Source: Planctomycetota bacterium (GTDB lineage: Bacteria > Planctomycetota > MHYJ01 > WSZJ01). Taken from it: a stretch of DNA of 64,000 nucleotides. The DNA lies in assembly GCA_038060895.1 (NCBI GenBank), contig JBBTCT010000022.1, positions 229,301 to 293,300 on the forward strand. Direction: 5' to 3'. Below, piece by piece: positions 43,286 to 47,802 of this stretch (its first letter is position 1; every line of letters starts with the position of its first letter). Made by a program: the position numbers and the translations under genes. Below the pieces are notes generated by a model. That model was not told the origin of the DNA. It did not search any database and saw only the letters and a program-made list of their open reading frames with translations.

Positions 43286-43573
43286 AGCATCGTACGCGCG
43301 GGGCTGCTGTCGCGCGAGTGGCAGGGGGAATAGTCGCCGGAACGCTCAGCCGAGATCGTATAAAATAAGTACTCTGCGCTGCTTAATGATATGCGTGGCT
43401 GGAGTCTGACGCACAGCGAATTTCAACGGGATTATGCACTTGACAAACTTAAAATCCATGAACGAAACTCGTACAGGCATCATGGTTTGCGTCGATTATG
43501 GCCCCGCGATTAAACGAATAAGAAAATCGCCAGAGTCCCGTTTCAGGACGCGATTTTGGCCCGCGACGAGGAT

Positions 43574-43702
43574 TCAGGACTTACGGCGAGGTTTCCCGGC
43601 CTTCTTAGCCCGCTTCAGGGGGGGTGTAGCGAGGGCCTTCCGGATCATGGCGTCGAAGTCCACGCGGGTCACTTCTCGGTGGCTCTCTGGCTTGGGTTTC
43701 AT
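43574..43702 (-). CDS. small basic ORF (42 aa) inside the element
   Basis: RBS AAGGAG 8 nt upstream of ATG; Lys/Arg-rich tail. Confidence 0.25.
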   Translation of the reverse strand: MKPKPESHREVTRVDFDAMIRKALATPPLKRAKKAGKPRRKS

Positions 43703-43748
43703 CTATCTATCTCCTTGGGGGTTATCAGGCTGATTCCCCTAGAAAGTA

Positions 43749-43777
43749 TTTGACAGCGTCTGCGGCGCAGCTTAGGA
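43749..43777 (+). promoter_or_regulatory. sigma-70-like promoter TTGACA-N17-TAGGAT
   Basis: tttgacagcgtctgcggcgcagcttaggat; downstream ATG at 43786 would be nearly leaderless. Confidence 0.4.
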
Positions 43778-43785
43778 TTTCCCAG

Positions 43786-44175
43786 ATGCGAAGGAACAAC
43801 AAGATCGTGAGCCTTGGAGAGGAAATCGCGGCGAAGCGCCGGGAGCTGGCGGCGCTTGAGGCCGAACTTGACATCGAAGTCAGGCGGTATAGCGGTGGTC
43901 ATGCGAAGGCTCCACAAGCGGTGGTGACACCGCCTAGACCTGCGGACCCTGAAGAGGTCCTTCTGAGTGATGCCATCATCGCTGGCAAGGTGGTGCCTCT
44001 CTTGGACAGGGAGCCGGATCGGGTGTTCACCGTGGATGATATCACAAGATTGACCGGAGTGCCGCGCCACCTTCTGGTGATGTCTATCGGGCGCATGGTG
44101 CGCTGGCACAAGGTCCACAAAGTGGAAGCTGGCAAGTACAAGGCATCCACGGTTAAGAAAGCGATGGAGGGATAA
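43786..44175 (+). CDS. hypothetical protein with coiled-coil N-terminus and winged-helix-like C-terminus (element passenger/regulator)
   Basis: Alternative start at 43750; followed by hairpin ccctcgg-N7-ccgaggg. Confidence 0.45.
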   Translation: MRRNNKIVSLGEEIAAKRRELAALEAELDIEVRRYSGGHAKAPQAVVTPPRPADPEEVLLSDAIIAGKVVPLLDREPDRVFTVDDITRLTGVPRHLLVMSIGRMVRWHKVHKVEAGKYKASTVKKAMEG

Positions 44176-44215
44176 AGAAAAACCCTCGGTCGTTGGCCGA
44201 GGGTGTACGTCGGTT

Positions 44216-44307
44216 GGAGAGGTGTCCGAGTGGCTTATGGTGCTGGTTTCCAAAACCAGTGAACGGTGGTGACACACCGTCCGAGGGTTCGACTCCCTCC
44301 CTCTCCG
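44216..44307 (+). tRNA. class-II tRNA, Ser-like body (acceptor GGAGAGG, G73) with anticodon CCA (reads UGG)
   Basis: Hand-folded: acceptor GGAGAGG/CCTCTCC, anticodon stem CTGGT/ACCAG, loop TTCCAAA, 23-nt variable arm with 6-bp stem ACGGTG/CACCGT, T-arm GAGGG-TTCGACT-CCCTC. Confidence 0.6.
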
Positions 44308-44325
44308 TTTTGCTGTTCTGAGGCT

Positions 44326-44420
44326 GGCCGGGTGGCGGAACTGGTTTACGCGCCCGACTTGGAATCGGGTGGTTGTCTCTTGACGGGGGCACCATGCGGG
44401 TTCGAATCCCGTCCCGGTCA
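44326..44420 (+). tRNA. class-II tRNA, Leu-like body (D-arm GGCGGAACTGGTTTACGCG, A73) with anticodon UGG (reads CCN)
   Basis: Acceptor GGCCGGG/CCCGGTC, anticodon stem CCCGA/TCGGG, loop CTTGGAA, long variable arm, T-arm GCGGG-TTCGAAT-CCCGT. Confidence 0.55.
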
Positions 44421-44541
44421 GTCTCATTTTTGAAAGATCGAAGCGCCTTTGCGAAGTGCTTGAGGCTGGCGCGTGTCAAAAGAATACAACAAGACTGGGT
44501 GCGTGTCAACTTGCGAAATTGACGCACCGCGCCAACTCTGA

Positions 44542-45495
44542 CTAGCGCTTCACATCCCGCTTTGGCGCTTCCAGAGTGAGGCGTTTTCCTTCGGTGCGCT
44601 GGATCGCGTCGAGCATCTTCGCCCCGTCTGACTTCTTCCGGTTGTTGAACGTCCAGAGGTAGGAATCGAGGTACTTCGGAAGGTAGTCATGCCCAACGCC
44701 GTGGAAGATGCCCACGATGGAAGTCTTGAAGTTGGCGAAGAGGCCCTCAACGCCGTTCGTCGTGACGTCCCCACGGGCGTACTCTTCGATGGAGTGGTTG
44801 ACGGTTTCATGCTTCACCATCATCCGCCCTGGCGTGACGTACAGCTTGGATTCGTCTGAGTGAAGCACCGTCCGCTTGGGATCAACGTTCTTCATTACGA
44901 AGCGGCGGATGTCCCGCGCGTTGGCCTTGGGCGCTGGCTTGACGACGGCACGCGCGGACCCTCCACGCTGAACCAGCGCCAGCACGGTTGACTTCTTCAC
45001 GGCCTTGCCACGGCGCGATCCGCGCCCCTTGTGGCCGAAGTAGGTTTCGTCCGCTTCGATGATCCCGGCGAGTGGTGACTTGTCGGAGTTCTGGAGAGCG
45101 TGGCGCACCCGATGGCAGAGAAACCACGCGGTGCGATAACTGCCGAGTTCAAGGTGCCGCTGGATTGCCAGCGCCGAGATTCCTGTCTTGCTGGACGAAA
45201 TGAGGTAGAAGGCCAGCAGCCACTTGTTGAGCGGGATGTGGCTGTCCTCGAAGATCGTGCCAACGGTGCAAGTGAACTGCTTCCGGCACGCCACGCAGAA
45301 CAGCAGCCCCTTGCGAATCTTCTTCTCCGCGTCTGGCTTGAGCCGGGCGACCTTCTCGCGTTCGGTGCAGCCACAGTGCGGGCAAACGGGGCCAGAGGGC
45401 CAGCGCACCGCTTCGATGTAGTTACGCGCGGCGTCCTCGTCTGGGAAGAGAGAGAAGATGTTCGTCAGGCTCACGGCATCGGGCGTCGGGATCAT
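44542..45495 (-). CDS. IS1595-family (ISXO2-like) DDE transposase
   Basis: N-terminal zinc ribbon WPSGPVCPHCG; DDE core around IIEADETYFG. Confidence 0.85.
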   Translation of the reverse strand: MIPTPDAVSLTNIFSLFPDEDAARNYIEAVRWPSGPVCPHCGCTEREKVARLKPDAEKKIRKGLLFCVACRKQFTCTVGTIFEDSHIPLNKWLLAFYLISSSKTGISALAIQRHLELGSYRTAWFLCHRVRHALQNSDKSPLAGIIEADETYFGHKGRGSRRGKAVKKSTVLALVQRGGSARAVVKPAPKANARDIRRFVMKNVDPKRTVLHSDESKLYVTPGRMMVKHETVNHSIEEYARGDVTTNGVEGLFANFKTSIVGIFHGVGHDYLPKYLDSYLWTFNNRKKSDGAKMLDAIQRTEGKRLTLEAPKRDVKR

Positions 45496-45721
45496 GGGCG
45501 TCTCCTTTGAGTACGCCTAAAAGATACTAGATCATGCTTGTTTTGTCAAGTGCATAATCCCGATTTCAAGCTTAACATTATGATATTAAATAAGTTATGA
45601 CACATTGTCTGCAACGGTTCATTCGGCACGTGCGTTGCAATTCAATCTTGACGCGACCTGATCAACGAACGGTTGCGGCCTTCACTTCCCAAACAACAAC
45701 TCACCGATCGGAGAACGACCC

Positions 45722-46810: not shown

Positions 46811-47162
46811 CATGACGACAAGTTCCCTGCCGACGCCGACGGGCGAATCCGTTCCCATGACCAGCTTCCCGGCCTCTGCGCTCAAGAACTCCGCTGCGGA
46901 TGTCCTGGAGATGGTCCTGACCTCCGGCGCCGTTGTCATCACCCGACACGGCAAGGAGAAGGCCGTGATCCTGTCCGTCGAAGCCTACCGGCGACTCGTG
47001 GCTTCCCGCCGCGACGACCTGGACGTTCTACGCGCAAAATTCGGCGGGCTGCTAGCCAGAATGCAGACTCCCGCTGCGCGAAAGGGCGCACGGGCCGCCT
47101 TCGACGCTTCGCCGGATGAAATGGGCAAAGCAGCCGTAAAGGCGGCGCGCCGCCGTGGCTGA
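46811..47162 (+). CDS. Phd/YefM-family antitoxin
   Basis: RBS AGGAGG; core VVITRHGKEKAVILSVEAYRRL; AT-rich palindromic operator upstream. Confidence 0.7.
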
Positions 47163-47802
47163 CCGCCGCGCCGTCATCACCGTGCTCGCCGGCACGAATG
47201 GCGCCGGCAAGAGCAGCATTGCAGGAGCCACGATTCGTTCGCGCCAGGCGGACTACTACAACCCTGACGAAGCGGCGCGCGCTCACAAGGAAGCGCATCC
47301 GGAGGCGACTGCCGAAGAAGCGAACGCCGCTGCGTGGGAATTCGGCCGCCGCATGCTCGAAGAGGCCGCTCGTGAGCGGAAGAACTTCGCCTTTGAAACG
47401 ACACTGGGCGGCAACACGATCATGTTTCTTCTTGAGAATGCAGCGAATTCCGGTTTGGACGTGCGGATCTGGTACACCGGACTTGCTTCAGTCGAGTTGC
47501 ACCTCAAACGCGTCCGGCAACGGGTCCGCCTGGGAGGTCACGACATTCCCGAGGAAATGATCCGGCGCCGCTATGAGAACGGGCCCCGGAACCTGATCCG
47601 CCTCATGCCGAAGCTCGCCTCGCTGCGCGTCTACGACAACAGTGCCGCAGGGGATCCCGCCGCGGGAGTGGCTCCGAAACCAGTTCTTGTTCTGCAGATG
47701 GAAAAGGGCCGAATTGCCGGGCCGAAGGATCTGTCCCGGACTTCCGAATGGGCGAAATCGATCGTCGCGCGGGCCATGGAACTTCACTCGGCGCCCAGGT
47801 AG
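47155..47802 (+). CDS. zeta-toxin-like P-loop kinase (toxin of TA pair)
   Basis: P-loop [11 protein letters not shown]; 8-nt overlap with antitoxin gene; GTG start. Confidence 0.7.

What the first reader, a model, noticed from the sequence alone, without database searches (positions are those of the whole stretch)
44326..44420. Class-II Leu-like tRNA with a Pro anticodon (UGG), tandem to the Ser-like/CCA tRNA
The second tRNA lies 18 nt downstream. Its D-arm (TGGCGGAACTGGTTTACGCG) is almost identical to bacterial tRNA-Leu. It has an A73 discriminator, a long variable arm, and T-loop TTCGAAT. Its anticodon loop CUUGGAA puts UGG at positions 34-36. LeuRS is also anticodon-blind, so it would insert Leu at CCN (Pro) codons. 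The two anticodon loops are reverse complements of each other (UUCCAAA against CUUGGAA), so the pair could form a loop-loop (kissing) duplex. Two adjacent identity-swapped tRNAs on a transposable element is not a described arrangement. Candidate roles are programmed mistranslation, anti-phage or anti-host translation interference, and toxin/decoy RNA.
Basis: partly seen in the sequence, partly recalled or inferred. Interest (0 to 1): 0.85.

Follow-up and report, generated by a model that had tools for sequence, protein, structure and literature searches.

The report
Transposon-carried Leu-type tRNA with Pro anticodon
A jumping gene in a Planctomycetota genome carries two intact long-arm tRNAs whose anticodons do not match their bodies; the second belongs to a conserved, apparently undescribed family of leucine-type tRNAs with a proline anticodon that travel with this kind of transposon, and the transposon's own gene is enriched in the codon they read.

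Summary
Window 44326-44420 (+) is a well-folded class II tRNA with a Leu-type D-arm, A73, a 26-nt variable arm and anticodon UGG. It lies 18 nt after a Ser-type tRNA with anticodon CCA. Both sit inside a 2136-bp IS1595-family element with perfect 21-bp inverted repeats and a 7-bp target duplication.

The tRNA is one of 23 related class II Leu-type tRNAs found here: 22 carry UGG and one carries UUA. All 161 stem cells pair across seven members. The family is linked to IS1595 transposases in both search directions.

Transposase genes next to a UGG tRNA use CCA for 27% of Pro codons, against 10% in 87 relatives. The excess sits at non-conserved prolines only. This indicates that the tRNA decodes CCA, and it hints that the tRNA does not reliably insert Pro.

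Best reading: a LeuRS-chargeable missense tRNA used by the element. Charging by ProRS is not excluded.

The Ser-type partner is unique to this element. About a third of relatives carry a nearby loop complementary to the anticodon loop, with matching flanking changes. That signal did not replicate under a strict test.

I found no published description. The closest precedent is the allo-tRNAs.

The parts
43427..45562 (.). Complete IS1595-family insertion sequence (2136 bp) carrying both tRNAs
   Evidence: Perfect 21-nt terminal inverted repeats. Transposase Pfam hits. Homologous inverted repeats (ATTATGCACTTGNCAAA) bracket the related element in L003.
43427..43447 (+). Left terminal inverted repeat CGGGATTATGCACTTGACAAA
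   Evidence: (pair I2, 100% complementary)
45542..45562 (-). Right terminal inverted repeat. It contains the TTGACA of the transposase promoter-like site.
43420..43426 (.). Target-site duplication ATTTCAA, left copy
   Evidence: read directly
45563..45569 (.). Target-site duplication ATTTCAA, right copy
   Evidence: read directly
43574..43702 (-). 42-aa basic ORF (MKPKPESHREVTRVDFDAMIRKALATPPLKRAKKAGKPRRKS), divergent from the tRNA operon. Weakly similar small ORFs occur in L003, L004, L070 and L103.
   Evidence: Gene called in the public assembly. Alignment A4 has low identity. No Pfam hit.
43750..43778 (+). Promoter-like site TTGACA-17-TAGGAT. It is the only + strand candidate upstream of the 129-aa ORF and the tRNAs.
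   Evidence: consensus match only
43786..44175 (+). 129-aa orphan ORF, possibly a winged-helix protein, immediately upstream of the tRNAs
   Evidence: Only a self hit among 5.8 billion proteins. Sub-threshold MarR_2 hit. Gene called in the public assembly.
44182..44204 (-). GC-rich hairpin followed by a T-run on the minus strand. It would stop transcription that runs antisense through the tRNAs.
44216..44307 (+). tRNA1: Ser-type class II tRNA. Acceptor stem GGAGAGG/CCUCUCC, G73, 23-nt variable arm with a 6-bp stem and GUGA loop, U10-U25 mismatch. Anticodon CCA at 44250-44252.
   Evidence: No homologue in the other loci.
44326..44420 (+). tRNA2 (the finding): Leu-type class II tRNA with A73, 26-nt variable arm, anticodon loop CUUGGAA at 44358-44364 and anticodon UGG at 44360-44362.
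   Evidence: Family covariance model R1 gives 85.5 bits. Covariation.
44481..44509 (-). Promoter-like site TTGACA-17-TATTCT pointing antisense into the tRNA genes, inside a repeat-rich spacer
   Evidence: consensus match only
44542..45495 (-). IS1595-family transposase (317 aa), convergent with the tRNAs. 6 of its 15 Pro codons are CCA, none of them at the conserved prolines.
   Evidence: Pfam DDE_Tnp_IS1595 2.3e-29 and Zn_ribbon_IS1595 5e-12. Codons.
45521..45549 (-). Promoter-like site TTGACA-17-TATCTT for the transposase, partly inside the right inverted repeat

Best explanation
Shown: window 44326-44420 encodes an intact class II tRNA that is a passenger of an IS1595-family insertion sequence. 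It belongs to a conserved family of tRNALeu-derived tRNAs whose anticodon is fixed as UGG.

Inferred, with good support: the tRNA is used in translation and reads CCA codons. The transposase genes that travel with it are specifically enriched in CCA. In this GC-rich host, CCA makes up only 2% of Pro codons.

Inferred, with moderate support: the tRNA keeps the LeuRS identity set and lacks two strong ProRS determinants, so it is at least partly charged with leucine. It would then act as a natural Pro-to-Leu missense tRNA. The element tolerates this because it keeps CCA away from its essential prolines.

Inferred, with weak to moderate support: access to the anticodon is limited by a complementary loop encoded next to it. 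In this element that partner is the anticodon loop of the upstream Ser-type tRNA(CCA). That tRNA would itself be a Trp-codon missense tRNA with Ser identity, or with dual Ser/Trp identity.

What the element gains is not established. Options include tuning or diversifying its own proteins, coupling transposase output to expression of the tRNA operon, and host proteome stress.
For: 1. It is a real, selected tRNA.
- Rfam gives 55.5 bits.
- In the seven-member alignment, 161 of 161 stem cells pair and 19 of 23 pairs show double changes. None of 500 shuffles reach this, and shifted registers drop to 39-46% paired.

2. It is a family with a fixed anticodon.
- The search that started from the transposase, which has no anticodon bias, gave UGG in 6 of 7 tRNAs and UUA in one, among 97 IS1595 loci.
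- Searches of viral contigs that started from the tRNA added 16 more.

3. The link to the transposon holds in both directions.
- An IS1595 transposase lies beside 6 of the 16 tRNAs found in the tRNA-first searches.
- It lies beside 0 of 120 ordinary Leu-type tRNAs, whose anticodons are UAG, CAG, CAA, UAA and GAG.
- Inverted repeats enclose the tRNA in the window, L003, L027, L070 and L098.

4. The tRNA appears to be used in translation.
- CCA makes up 34 of 124 Pro codons in the accompanying transposases, against 87 of 873 in relatives (Fisher 5e-7).
- Per element, Mann-Whitney gives 4.5e-6.
- The excess survives a same-subfamily control (22.6% against 12.9%, P = 0.016). Other NNA codons are not enriched.
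- In the window, host genes use CCA for 12 of 635 Pro codons and IS genes for 8 of 28.

5. Leucine fits better than proline.
- A73, A14, U8, the A15:U48 Levitt pair and the Leu-type D-loop geometry are conserved. G1-C72 and A15:U48 stand where ProRS needs G72 and G15:C48 (identity rules from PMC9976931).
- The CCA excess is confined to non-conserved Pro columns (22/71). Conserved-Pro columns show 1/34. Controls show 54/501 and 17/284.
- In the window, P33, P36, P39 and P88 are CCC or CCG, while all six CCA codons fall at variable positions.
- An engineered tRNALeu(UGG) puts Leu at Pro codons in yeast (PMC11028032).

6. There are signs of a partner loop.
- The complement of anticodon-loop positions 33-37 lies in a hairpin loop within 200 nt upstream in 4 of the first 12 loci, against 0.43 expected (P about 5e-4).
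- L055 has an 8-nt match in a hairpin just before the ribosome-binding site of the next ORF.
- C33 is matched by G in L004 and L024. C38 is matched by G in L233 and L236. U38 is matched by A in L055.
- Over 22 loci the complement 5-mer occurs 20 times on the same strand and 6 times on the antisense strand, against 9.6 expected (P = 0.002).
Against: - No aminoacylation, expression or proteomic data exist. Identity is inferred from rules worked out mostly in E. coli.
- G35, G36 and A73 are the anticodon and discriminator determinants of ProRS, and ProRS types differ in how much they read the acceptor stem. Three family members (L070, L099, L237) even have the Pro-type C1-G72 pair.
- U33 is C in three members, position 37 is C in one, and U55 is C in three. 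These changes would weaken decoding.
- CCA is also somewhat rarer at conserved prolines in controls (6% against 10.8%). The evidence for a non-Pro amino acid therefore rests on small numbers, roughly P = 0.01 by my own binomial estimate.
- Part of the CCA signal comes from one linker position (alignment column 181). CCA is also common there in relatives without a tRNA (8/22).
- The partner-loop test was designed after seeing the first cases. Under the same strict criterion it did not replicate in the second set (2/11 against 1.0 expected, P = 0.26).
- More than half of the family shows no partner.
- No benefit to the element has been demonstrated.
Confidence: 0.45

Rival explanations
1. A class II-bodied proline tRNA. 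ProRS reads G35, G36 and A73 and charges it with Pro. The element carries it as a codon-supply tRNA, as phages do, so that its CCA-rich genes can be translated in GC-rich hosts where CCA is very rare. On this reading there is no mistranslation.
For: - UGG and A73 are both conserved, and both are ProRS determinants.
- IS genes use CCA about 15 times more often than host genes (29% against 2%). CCA is enriched in the accompanying transposases.
- Three members have the Pro-type C1-G72 pair.
- Jumbo-phage tRNA arrays hold class II-bodied tRNAs(CCA) with a full Trp-type acceptor end, A1-U72 and G73. This shows that long-arm bodies can be re-assigned to the amino acid of the anticodon.
Against: - In the window tRNA and in 20 of 23 members, G1-C72 replaces G72, A15:U48 replaces G15:C48 and A37 replaces G37.
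- The LeuRS set is fully retained, so LeuRS should compete.
- CCA is not enriched at conserved prolines (1/34). It should be if CCA were simply the best-supplied Pro codon.
Confidence: 0.27
2. A tRNA-shaped regulatory RNA that is not used for decoding. Its anticodon loop acts as a fast-pairing U-turn loop that kisses a complementary loop: tRNA1 here, and leader, trailer or 5'-UTR hairpins elsewhere. This would control processing, neighbouring gene expression or transposition, in the manner of antisense-loop control or T-box specifier pairing.
For: - Complementary same-strand loops occur with matching flanking changes in the window, L004, L024, L055, L101, L233, L236 and L241.
- In L055 the 8-nt complement sits in a hairpin 5-6 nt upstream of the ribosome-binding site of the next ORF.
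- Loop and T-loop positions important for decoding drift in some members: C33, C37 and C55.
Against: - The central UGG is invariant in 22 of 23 members, while the flanking positions co-vary. This points to a constraint outside the RNA pair, such as the codon or the synthetase.
- The CCA codon enrichment in transposase genes is not expected for a non-decoding RNA.
- Acceptor stems, A73 and frequently encoded CCA ends are maintained.
- More than half the members have no partner, and the strict replication failed.
- There is no Rfam T-box match or any match other than tRNA.
Confidence: 0.18
3. A hitchhiking or decaying tRNALeu gene that an IS captured and that then acquired a chance anticodon mutation. 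On this reading it has no function.
For: - Only a minority of related IS1595 elements carry it (7 of 97 loci).
- Some members have degenerate T-loops (L055, L099, L237, L240).
Against: - Stem pairing is perfect, with 19 of 23 pairs changed on both sides, across members whose transposases are only about 40% identical.
- The same anticodon occurs in 22 of 23 members.
- The transposase codon usage has co-adapted.
Confidence: 0.03

Closest known systems
Allo-tRNAs and polycistrons of irregular tRNAs in Acidobacteria (Mukai et al. 2017, Nucleic Acids Res, PMC5389517)
   Same: Both are natural long-variable-arm tRNAs whose anticodon does not match their Ser or other identity. Both are predicted missense or nonsense suppressors, are sometimes tandem, and lie near transposon-related genes and toxin-antitoxin systems. 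Some allo-tRNAs are active in E. coli and others are proposed to be non-translational.
   Different: Allo-tRNAs are defined by 8/4 or 9/3 acceptor/T-stem geometry. These tRNAs are canonical 7/5 with a Leu-type body. Here the anticodon is fixed (UGG) rather than spread over many codons. The gene is demonstrably inside an IS1595 element bounded by inverted repeats. The transposase codon usage tracks the tRNA.
Engineered or variant tRNALeu and tRNASer anticodon mutants that mistranslate (e.g. tRNALeu(UGG) and tRNASer(UGG) in yeast, flies and mammalian cells; PMC11028032, PMC6827378)
   Same: The principle is the same: LeuRS and SerRS ignore the anticodon, so an anticodon change re-targets Leu or Ser to other codons. 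tRNALeu(UGG) puts Leu at Pro codons and impairs growth.
   Different: Those are laboratory constructs or rare human variants in eukaryotes. This is a conserved natural bacterial and phage family on a mobile element.
Natural bacterial mistranslating tRNAs of the tRNAProX type in Streptomyces and relatives (Pro identity with Ala, Thr or Asn anticodons and a dedicated ProRS paralogue; recalled from my own knowledge, not checked here)
   Same: Both are naturally maintained tRNAs whose anticodon and amino-acid identity disagree.
   Different: The direction is opposite: there Pro goes to other codons, here Leu goes to Pro codons. No synthetase paralogue lies in the 64-kb window. This is a class II body carried on an IS.
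Phage-encoded tRNAs, including suppressor tRNAs and the class II-bodied tRNA(CCA) genes found here in jumbo-phage tRNA arrays
   Same: Both are tRNA genes carried by mobile genetic elements and matched to the element's own codon usage. Both include long-arm bodies combined with non-Leu/Ser/Tyr anticodons.
   Different: The phage tRNA(CCA) genes have the Trp-type acceptor end, A1-U72 and G73. The window tRNA1 has a Ser-type acceptor and tRNA2 a Leu-type acceptor. An insertion sequence is a far smaller carrier than a phage tRNA array.
Complementary-anticodon tRNA dimers and anticodon-specifier loop pairing in T-box leaders (established knowledge, recalled from memory)
   Same: In both, an anticodon loop pairs with a complementary 7-nt-type loop, with extra pairs to positions 33 and 37.
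   Different: No T-box architecture or Rfam T-box match is present. The partner varies between elements: a tRNA, a leader hairpin, a 5'-UTR hairpin or the tRNA's own variable-arm loop. The pairing itself is untested.
IS1595-family insertion sequences with passenger genes (ISfinder classification, recalled from memory)
   Same: Both have a DDE transposase with an N-terminal zinc ribbon, short terminal inverted repeats, a target duplication and room for passengers.
   Different: I found no report of tRNA passengers in this family.

Membership tests
tRNA (Rfam RF00005), class II (long variable arm) | Full-length match to the tRNA covariance model above the gathering score | tested here: met
   55.5 bits against a gathering score of 29, model positions 1-71. 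ARAGORN also calls it.
tRNA (Rfam RF00005), class II (long variable arm) | Cloverleaf helices maintained by compensatory changes among homologues | tested here: met
   161/161 cells paired, 19/23 pairs with changes on both sides, 0/500 shuffles reach this.
tRNA (Rfam RF00005), class II (long variable arm) | Base-paired long variable arm | tested here: met
   The 26-nt region folds as a 3+6 bp stem (-9.7 kcal/mol alone) and is part of the minimum-free-energy cloverleaf.
Bacterial tRNALeu (LeuRS substrate) | Discriminator A73 | tested here: met
   A at 44420, and A73 in all 23 family members. Rule from PMC9976931.
Bacterial tRNALeu (LeuRS substrate) | A14/U8 and the Leu-type core: D-loop length and G18G19 placement, and the A15:U48 Levitt pair | tested here: met
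   The D-arm has the same length as E. coli leuT and is 17/20 identical to it. The L098 D-arm is identical to leuT. U precedes the T-stem in all seven aligned members.
Bacterial tRNALeu (LeuRS substrate) | A leucine anticodon (NAG or NAA). This defines the isoacceptor but is not needed by LeuRS. | tested here: not met
   The anticodon is UGG.
Bacterial tRNALeu (LeuRS substrate) | Actual leucylation | not testable with these tools
   Needs an aminoacylation assay.
Bacterial tRNAPro (ProRS substrate) | G35, G36 and A73 | tested here: met
Bacterial tRNAPro (ProRS substrate) | C1-G72 pair (G72), G15:C48 Levitt pair, G37, and a short class I variable loop | tested here: not met
   The window tRNA has G1-C72, A15:U48, A37 and a 26-nt variable arm. 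Determinants from PMC9976931.
IS1595-family insertion sequence | DDE_Tnp_IS1595 transposase with an N-terminal zinc ribbon | tested here: met
   PF12762 at 2.3e-29 and PF12760 at 5e-12.
IS1595-family insertion sequence | Terminal inverted repeats and a flanking target-site duplication | tested here: met
   Perfect 21-nt inverted repeats and the 7-bp repeat ATTTCAA on both sides. From memory the family norm is about 8 bp, so 7 bp is slightly short.
Allo-tRNA (Mukai 2017) | 12-bp acceptor branch split 8/4 or 9/3 | tested here: not met
   Both window tRNAs are 7/5. They work like allo-tRNAs but are not members.
Allo-tRNA (Mukai 2017) | Anticodon unrelated to identity, and association with mobile or toxin-antitoxin contexts | tested here: met
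   Zeta/PhdYeFM pair 1.2 kb from the IS.
T-box or other curated RNA family for the partner loops | Match to an Rfam model other than tRNA | tested here: not met
   Only RF00005 hits in the window and in six related loci at E up to 1.
Phage class II tRNA(CCA) with Trp-type acceptor (considered for tRNA1) | A1-U72 (or G1-U72) with G73 and loop CUCCAAA | tested here: not met
   tRNA1 has G1-C72, G2-C71, A3-U70 and loop UUCCAAA. 21 of the 22 phage genes have the Trp-type end and 21 of 22 the CUCCAAA loop.

The most novel reading that the evidence does not exclude
IS1595-family elements carry a self-contained recoding module with three parts. The first is a leucine-charged tRNA that reads the proline codon CCA. 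The second is a transposase gene whose codon choice has evolved around that tRNA: CCA at tolerant positions and at one recurrent linker position, but never at essential prolines. The third, in many copies, is a cis-encoded 'anti-anticodon' loop that masks the tRNA. In this element that loop belongs to a second missense tRNA, Ser at UGG. If true, this would be the first case of a transposon that deliberately alters decoding of a sense codon for its own regulation or for host manipulation. It would also be the first natural tRNA-tRNA anticodon pair used as a control device.
Probability: 0.25. Interest if true: 0.9.

Novelty: new variant of a known kind. Interest (0 to 1): 0.74.

Why it matters
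Natural tRNAs whose anticodon disagrees with their amino-acid identity are rare, and their purpose is an open question. This case offers a compact and tractable example.

- The whole system is a 2.1-kb insertion sequence.
- The tRNA belongs to a conserved family found in Planctomycetota, Alphaproteobacteria and viral contigs.
- There is an internal read-out, the element's own CCA-enriched transposase gene, which suggests the tRNA is used in decoding.
- A possible built-in masking partner is present.

The system could show whether mobile elements exploit controlled mistranslation or a private codon supply. It could supply new orthogonal tRNA scaffolds. It also warns annotators that 'tRNA-Pro' and 'tRNA-Trp' calls of 85-100 nt are not ordinary tRNAs.

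Tried and rejected
- **Private genetic code.** The idea was that Pro codons sit where relatives have Leu, or Trp codons where relatives have Ser. It was rejected. Prolines and tryptophans of tRNA-bearing transposases sit at conserved Pro and Trp columns or at variable ones. Only one CCA, in the window, falls on a hydrophobic column.
- **Ochre-suppressor logic in L070.** Both of its IS genes end in TAA, but TAA is the commonest stop in this transposase family (42/87), so this is not evidence.
- **Homologues of the 129-aa passenger protein.** Only a self hit was found. Passenger sets differ between elements: HARE-HTH, Gp49-like, HTH, and Schlafen/AlbA_2.
- **An empty insertion site in other assemblies.** None was found. 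All contigs carry the IS.
- **Plasmid search with the whole element.** It returned only short transposase matches.
- **BLAST of the two tRNAs against E. coli genomes.** This was too insensitive to be useful. I replaced it with direct comparison against annotated K-12 tRNAs.
- **A synthetase paralogue nearby,** as with Streptomyces ProRSx. None lies in the window.
- **tRNA1 as a member of the phage class II tRNA(CCA) group.** Rejected on its acceptor-stem type.
- **A dedicated sigma-70-like promoter directly upstream of the family's tRNAs.** None was found consistently.
- **Strict replication of the partner-hairpin test on 11 new loci.** Not significant.
- **Literature searches for IS-borne or transposon-encoded tRNAs, tRNALeu(UGG) and tRNASer(CCA).** No natural bacterial case was found.
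Full report
**What is at the coordinates**

ARAGORN finds exactly two tRNA genes in the 64-kb window: 44215-44308 (anticodon cca) and 44325-44421 (anticodon tgg). The Rfam tRNA model matches 44326-44420 end to end at 55.5 bits and 44216-44307 at 48.8 bits, against a gathering score of 29. No other Rfam family is present.

tRNA2 parses as a canonical 7/5 class II tRNA: GGCCGGG UG GCGGAACUGGUUUACGCG CCCGA CUUGGAA UCGGG, a 26-nt variable region, GCGGG UUCGAAU CCCGU CCCGGUC, then A73. Its minimum-free-energy fold is that cloverleaf, with a 3+6-bp variable arm.

tRNA1 is GGAGAGG UG UCCGAGUGGCUUAUGGUG CUGGU UUCCAAA ACCAG, a 23-nt variable arm with a 6-bp stem, GAGGG UUCGACU CCCUC CCUCUCC, then G73. 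It has one U10-U25 mismatch.

Compared with annotated E. coli K-12 tRNAs:
- The tRNA2 D-arm has the length of leuT and 17 of 20 of its bases.
- tRNA1 resembles serU. Its acceptor is GGAGAGG against GGAGAGA, it has G73, and it has a Ser-type D-arm.
- Each differs from a cognate isoacceptor by a change at position 35: UAG to UGG, and CGA to CCA.

**Context**

The window is chromosomal DNA of a Planctomycetota MAG. GC content is 66%, and the neighbours are ordinary genes.

The tRNAs lie inside a 2136-bp element bounded by perfect 21-nt inverted repeats (43427-43447 and 45542-45562). The 7-bp direct repeat ATTTCAA flanks it on both sides.

The element contains, in order:
- a 42-aa basic ORF (-);
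- a promoter-like TTGACA-17-TAGGAT site;
- a 129-aa orphan ORF (+);
- a hairpin;
- tRNA1, then tRNA2;
- a convergent transposase with Pfam DDE_Tnp_IS1595 and Zn_ribbon_IS1595 domains.

It is a complete, recently inserted IS1595-family element with passengers. A PhdYeFM/zeta pair lies 1.2 kb outside it.

**The tRNA is one of a family**

Searching one genome per species with the transposase gave 16 loci. Searching metagenomes with a transposase alignment gave 80 more. ARAGORN and a covariance model built from the hits found a homologous long-arm tRNA in L003, L004, L024, L027, L055 and L070.

Their transposases are only about 40% identical to the window's and are scattered over the transposase tree. 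Their stems differ almost everywhere, yet they always pair: 161/161 cells, 19/23 pairs with changes on both sides, and 0/500 shuffles reaching this.

This search carries no anticodon bias, and it gave these loops:
- CUUGGAA
- CUUGGCC
- UCUGGAG
- CCUGGAA (twice)
- CUUGGAU
- CUUUAAA (once)

That is UGG in six and UUA in one.

Inverted repeats homologous to the window's enclose the tRNA in L003, L027, L070 and L098.

**The reverse search**

Scanning viral contigs for a Leu-type D-arm followed by a YYUGGA loop gave 16 further unique members at 35-89 bits with the family model. Six of them have an IS1595 transposase or a fragment of one beside them, usually convergent.

As a control, 120 viral loci with the same D-arm but no anticodon constraint were examined. 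They carry normal Leu anticodons: UAG 57, CAG 20, CAA 13, UAA 12, GAG 7 and AAG 3. None is next to such a transposase.

The association between a Leu-type body, a UGG anticodon and IS1595 therefore holds in both directions. The family also occurs without a nearby transposase, including in a phage tRNA array (L247).

**Does it work in translation?**

The transposase genes that travel with a UGG tRNA use CCA for 34 of 124 proline codons (27%). The 87 relatives without it use CCA for 87 of 873 (10%), at the same third-position A content (Fisher 5e-7). Per element, Mann-Whitney gives 4.5e-6.

With controls limited to the same transposase subfamily, and with the most biased column removed, the difference persists (22.6% against 12.9%, P = 0.016). 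GCA, ACA, GUA, CUA and CGA are not enriched.

In the window itself, host genes use CCA for 12 of 635 proline codons and IS genes for 8 of 28.

A codon-level signature of this kind is what one expects if the tRNA decodes the element's own messages. It argues against a pseudogene and against a purely non-decoding RNA.

**Which amino acid?**

Published identity rules (PMC9976931) state:
- E. coli tRNALeu identity rests on A73 and A14 plus the tertiary core.
- tRNAPro identity rests on G72, G35, G36, A73 and the G15:C48 pair.
- LeuRS and SerRS do not read the anticodon (PMC11028032).

The family keeps A73, A14, U8, A15:U48 and the Leu D-loop geometry. It has G35, G36 and A73 but not G72, G15:C48 or G37. 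The exceptions are L070, L099 and L237, which have C1-G72. Leucylation is thus the better fit, but ProRS charging cannot be excluded.

The codon data add a hint. The CCA excess is confined to non-conserved proline columns (22/71 against 54/501 in controls). Conserved-proline columns show none (1/34 against 17/284). In the window, P33, P36, P39 and P88 are CCC or CCG, and all six CCA codons are at variable positions.

If the tRNA simply supplied proline, the excess should also appear at conserved prolines. By my rough binomial estimate, 1 of 34 against an expected 18% has P of about 0.01. The numbers are small, and controls show a weaker trend in the same direction, so I treat this as moderate evidence for a non-proline or risky insertion.

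A recurrent CCA sits at one linker position, alignment column 181 in the motif xPLxxKLxG. It occurs in 8 of 9 tRNA-bearing elements that have Pro there, against 8 of 22 controls. Part of this may be shared ancestry.

There is no sign of a private code. Pro and Trp residues do not sit on Leu or Ser columns, apart from one CCA in the window on a hydrophobic column.

**The kissing-loop idea**

In the window the two anticodon loops can form six contiguous pairs. The duplex energy is -5.6 kcal/mol, reached by 0.9% of random anticodon-like loop pairs.

The Ser-type tRNA is not conserved. No other locus has a second class II tRNA beside the UGG tRNA.

However, several relatives carry a sequence on the same strand that is complementary to their own anticodon loop and sits in a hairpin loop:
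- L004: UCCAG in a strong hairpin at -32. This tRNA has C33.
- L024: UCCAG at -179. This tRNA has C33.
- L101/L102: two hairpins with CGUCCAAC loops, and a UUUCCAAAA trailer.
- L055: AAUCCAAG, an 8-nt perfect match that includes its unusual U38. It sits in a hairpin just before the ribosome-binding site and start of a 57-aa ORF.
- L233: GUCCAAGG in a downstream hairpin, and GUCCAA in its own variable-arm loop. This tRNA has C38.
- L236: GUCCAAA hairpin loop at -53. This tRNA has C38.
- L241 and L103: the complement lies in their own long variable arms.

The statistics are mixed:
- In the first 12 loci the strict criterion gave 4 hits against 0.43 expected (P about 5e-4). That test was devised after seeing the data.
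- In the 11 later loci the same criterion gave 2 against 1.0 expected (P = 0.26).
- Over all 22 loci the complement 5-mer occurs 20 times on the same strand and 6 times on the antisense strand, against 9.6 expected (P = 0.002).

I conclude that anticodon-loop pairing with a cis-encoded partner is a real possibility. It is supported by matching changes at positions 33 and 38. It is neither universal nor proven. A DNA-level explanation also remains open: repeated protein-binding sites, as the four ACGTCCAAC copies in L241 might suggest.

Because the central UGG never changes while its flanks co-vary with the partner, the triplet seems to be held by something else. The codon or the synthetase would fit, and that agrees with a decoding role.

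**Other readings considered**

- The passenger proteins are not conserved, apart from a weakly similar small basic ORF.
- No synthetase paralogue is nearby.
- Class II tRNAs with a CCA anticodon are common in jumbo-phage tRNA arrays. Those have the Trp-type A1-U72/G73 acceptor end, so they are probably true Trp tRNAs with long arms. The window's tRNA1 has a Ser-type acceptor and is a different thing.
- tRNA1 shares G73 and CCA with the TrpRS identity set, so dual Ser/Trp charging is possible.

**Comparison with what is known**

The closest described objects are the allo-tRNAs and irregular tRNA polycistrons of Acidobacteria. These are long-arm tRNAs with mismatched anticodons near transposon-related genes and toxin-antitoxin systems. 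Some are active as suppressors in E. coli and some are thought to be non-translational (PMC5389517, PMC7609411).

The present tRNAs work like these but fail their defining 8/4 or 9/3 geometry.

Engineered tRNALeu(UGG) causes Pro-to-Leu mistranslation in yeast.

Seven literature searches found no report of tRNA passengers in IS1595 elements and no natural bacterial tRNALeu(UGG) or tRNASer(CCA). The library does not cover all journals.

**Verdict**

The conserved unit is the Leu-type tRNA(UGG) as an IS1595 passenger, with co-adapted transposase codon usage. The tandem Ser-type tRNA(CCA) is peculiar to this element, and it may serve as the anticodon-complementary partner that simple hairpins provide elsewhere.

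I rate it a new variant of a known kind: natural anticodon/identity-mismatched tRNAs on mobile elements.

My confidence in each reading:
- Missense Leu-at-CCA tRNA: about 0.45.
- Proline-charged codon-supply tRNA: about 0.27.
- Regulatory tRNA-like RNA: about 0.18.
- Hitchhiker or pseudogene: about 0.03.

Noticed in passing
L250-L272 (viral contigs), e.g. L250:5801-5889, L263:3675-3766, L272:2990-3080: 22 class II tRNAs (84-92 nt) with anticodon CCA sit inside large phage tRNA arrays, often beside a normal 72-74-nt tRNA-Trp. They combine a Ser-type D-arm and a long variable arm with a Trp-type acceptor end (A1-U72 or G1-U72, G73) and the loop CUCCAAA. They look like long-arm tryptophan tRNAs.
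   Followed up: partly
L250, L252, L255-L260, L263, L264, L269 (ARAGORN lists): The same phage arrays hold other over-long tRNAs with anticodons outside Leu/Ser/Tyr. Examples are Ile-UAU at 94 nt, Asn-GUU at 91 nt, Lys-CUU at 86 nt, Val-UAC at 86-87 nt, Glu-UUC at 85 nt, His-GUG at 82-90 nt and Pro-UGG at 83 nt. This suggests a wider phenomenon of long-arm bodies on many anticodons.
   Followed up: no
L070:2583-2664 (-), inside an IS bounded at about 1208 and 3483: One family member has the loop CUUUAAA, so its anticodon is UUA (ochre-suppressor type). It has a leuZ-like D-arm and a Pro-type C1-G72 pair. Both IS genes end in TAA, but TAA is the commonest stop in this transposase family, so that is not evidence of programmed readthrough.
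   Followed up: partly
L098:1300-2751 (+): The passenger ORF next to the class II tRNA in this element has Schlafen AlbA_2 and HATPase_c_4 domains. Eukaryotic Schlafens are known, from memory, to cleave long-arm Leu and Ser tRNAs. This is a single case and may be coincidence.
   Followed up: no
window 44481-44509 (-) and 44182-44204 (-): A promoter-like site downstream of tRNA2 points antisense into the tRNA genes. A hairpin with a T-run that terminates on the minus strand lies just upstream of tRNA1. Together they could bracket a roughly 300-nt antisense transcript covering both tRNAs, or the 3' end of the convergent transposase mRNA. The spacer 44460-44540 also holds repeats GCGTGTCAA and TTGACGCAC.
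   Followed up: no
window 46812-47802 (+): A PhdYeFM antitoxin and zeta-toxin pair lies 1.2 kb outside the right end of the IS. This echoes the reported proximity of allo-tRNAs to toxin-antitoxin systems, but it is not part of the element.
   Followed up: partly
window 43574-43702 (-); L003:1463-1708 (-); L004:2289-2444 (-); L070:2665-2937 (+); L103:9514-9825 (-): A small basic ORF with a shared C-terminal motif, roughly hydrophobic-x-E/D-x-hydrophobic-R/K-K/A-A-L-x3-P-x2-K-x-K, lies divergent from the tRNA in several elements. Similarity is low (23-40% identity) and there is no Pfam hit.
   Followed up: partly
L055:1407-1580 (-) and L103:9514-9825 (-): A small Cys-rich protein motif (W-H-S-I-K ... 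H-x-N-x2-C-x2-G-N-N-I-E ... C-x2-C) recurs next to the tRNA. In L055 its ribosome-binding site follows directly after the hairpin whose loop is an 8-nt complement of the tRNA anticodon loop.
   Followed up: partly
L241:896-925 and about 1073-1100; L101:7715-7765: The motif CGTCCAAC recurs. There are four direct copies (AACGTCCAAC) downstream of the tRNA in L241, and two hairpin loops upstream of the tRNA in L101/L102. It contains the complement of the anticodon loop but could equally be a protein-binding repeat.
   Followed up: partly
L247:1614-1687 (-): In a phage tRNA array, the class II tRNA(UGG) is followed 5 nt later by a 74-nt, class I-sized tRNA with the serine anticodon ACU. This is a mismatch in the opposite sense.
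   Followed up: no
L115:3084 (+): A viral contig has a Leu-type D-arm followed by the loop CUCUAAA (anticodon CUA). This is an amber-suppressor-type tRNALeu, of the kind used by stop-codon-recoded phages.
   Followed up: no
L003, L004, L027: The Rfam tRNA model, run at E up to 1, reported only three of these six family members (L024, L055, L070). It missed L003, L004 and L027, although ARAGORN and the family model find them easily. Standard annotation pipelines may therefore under-call this family.
   Followed up: no
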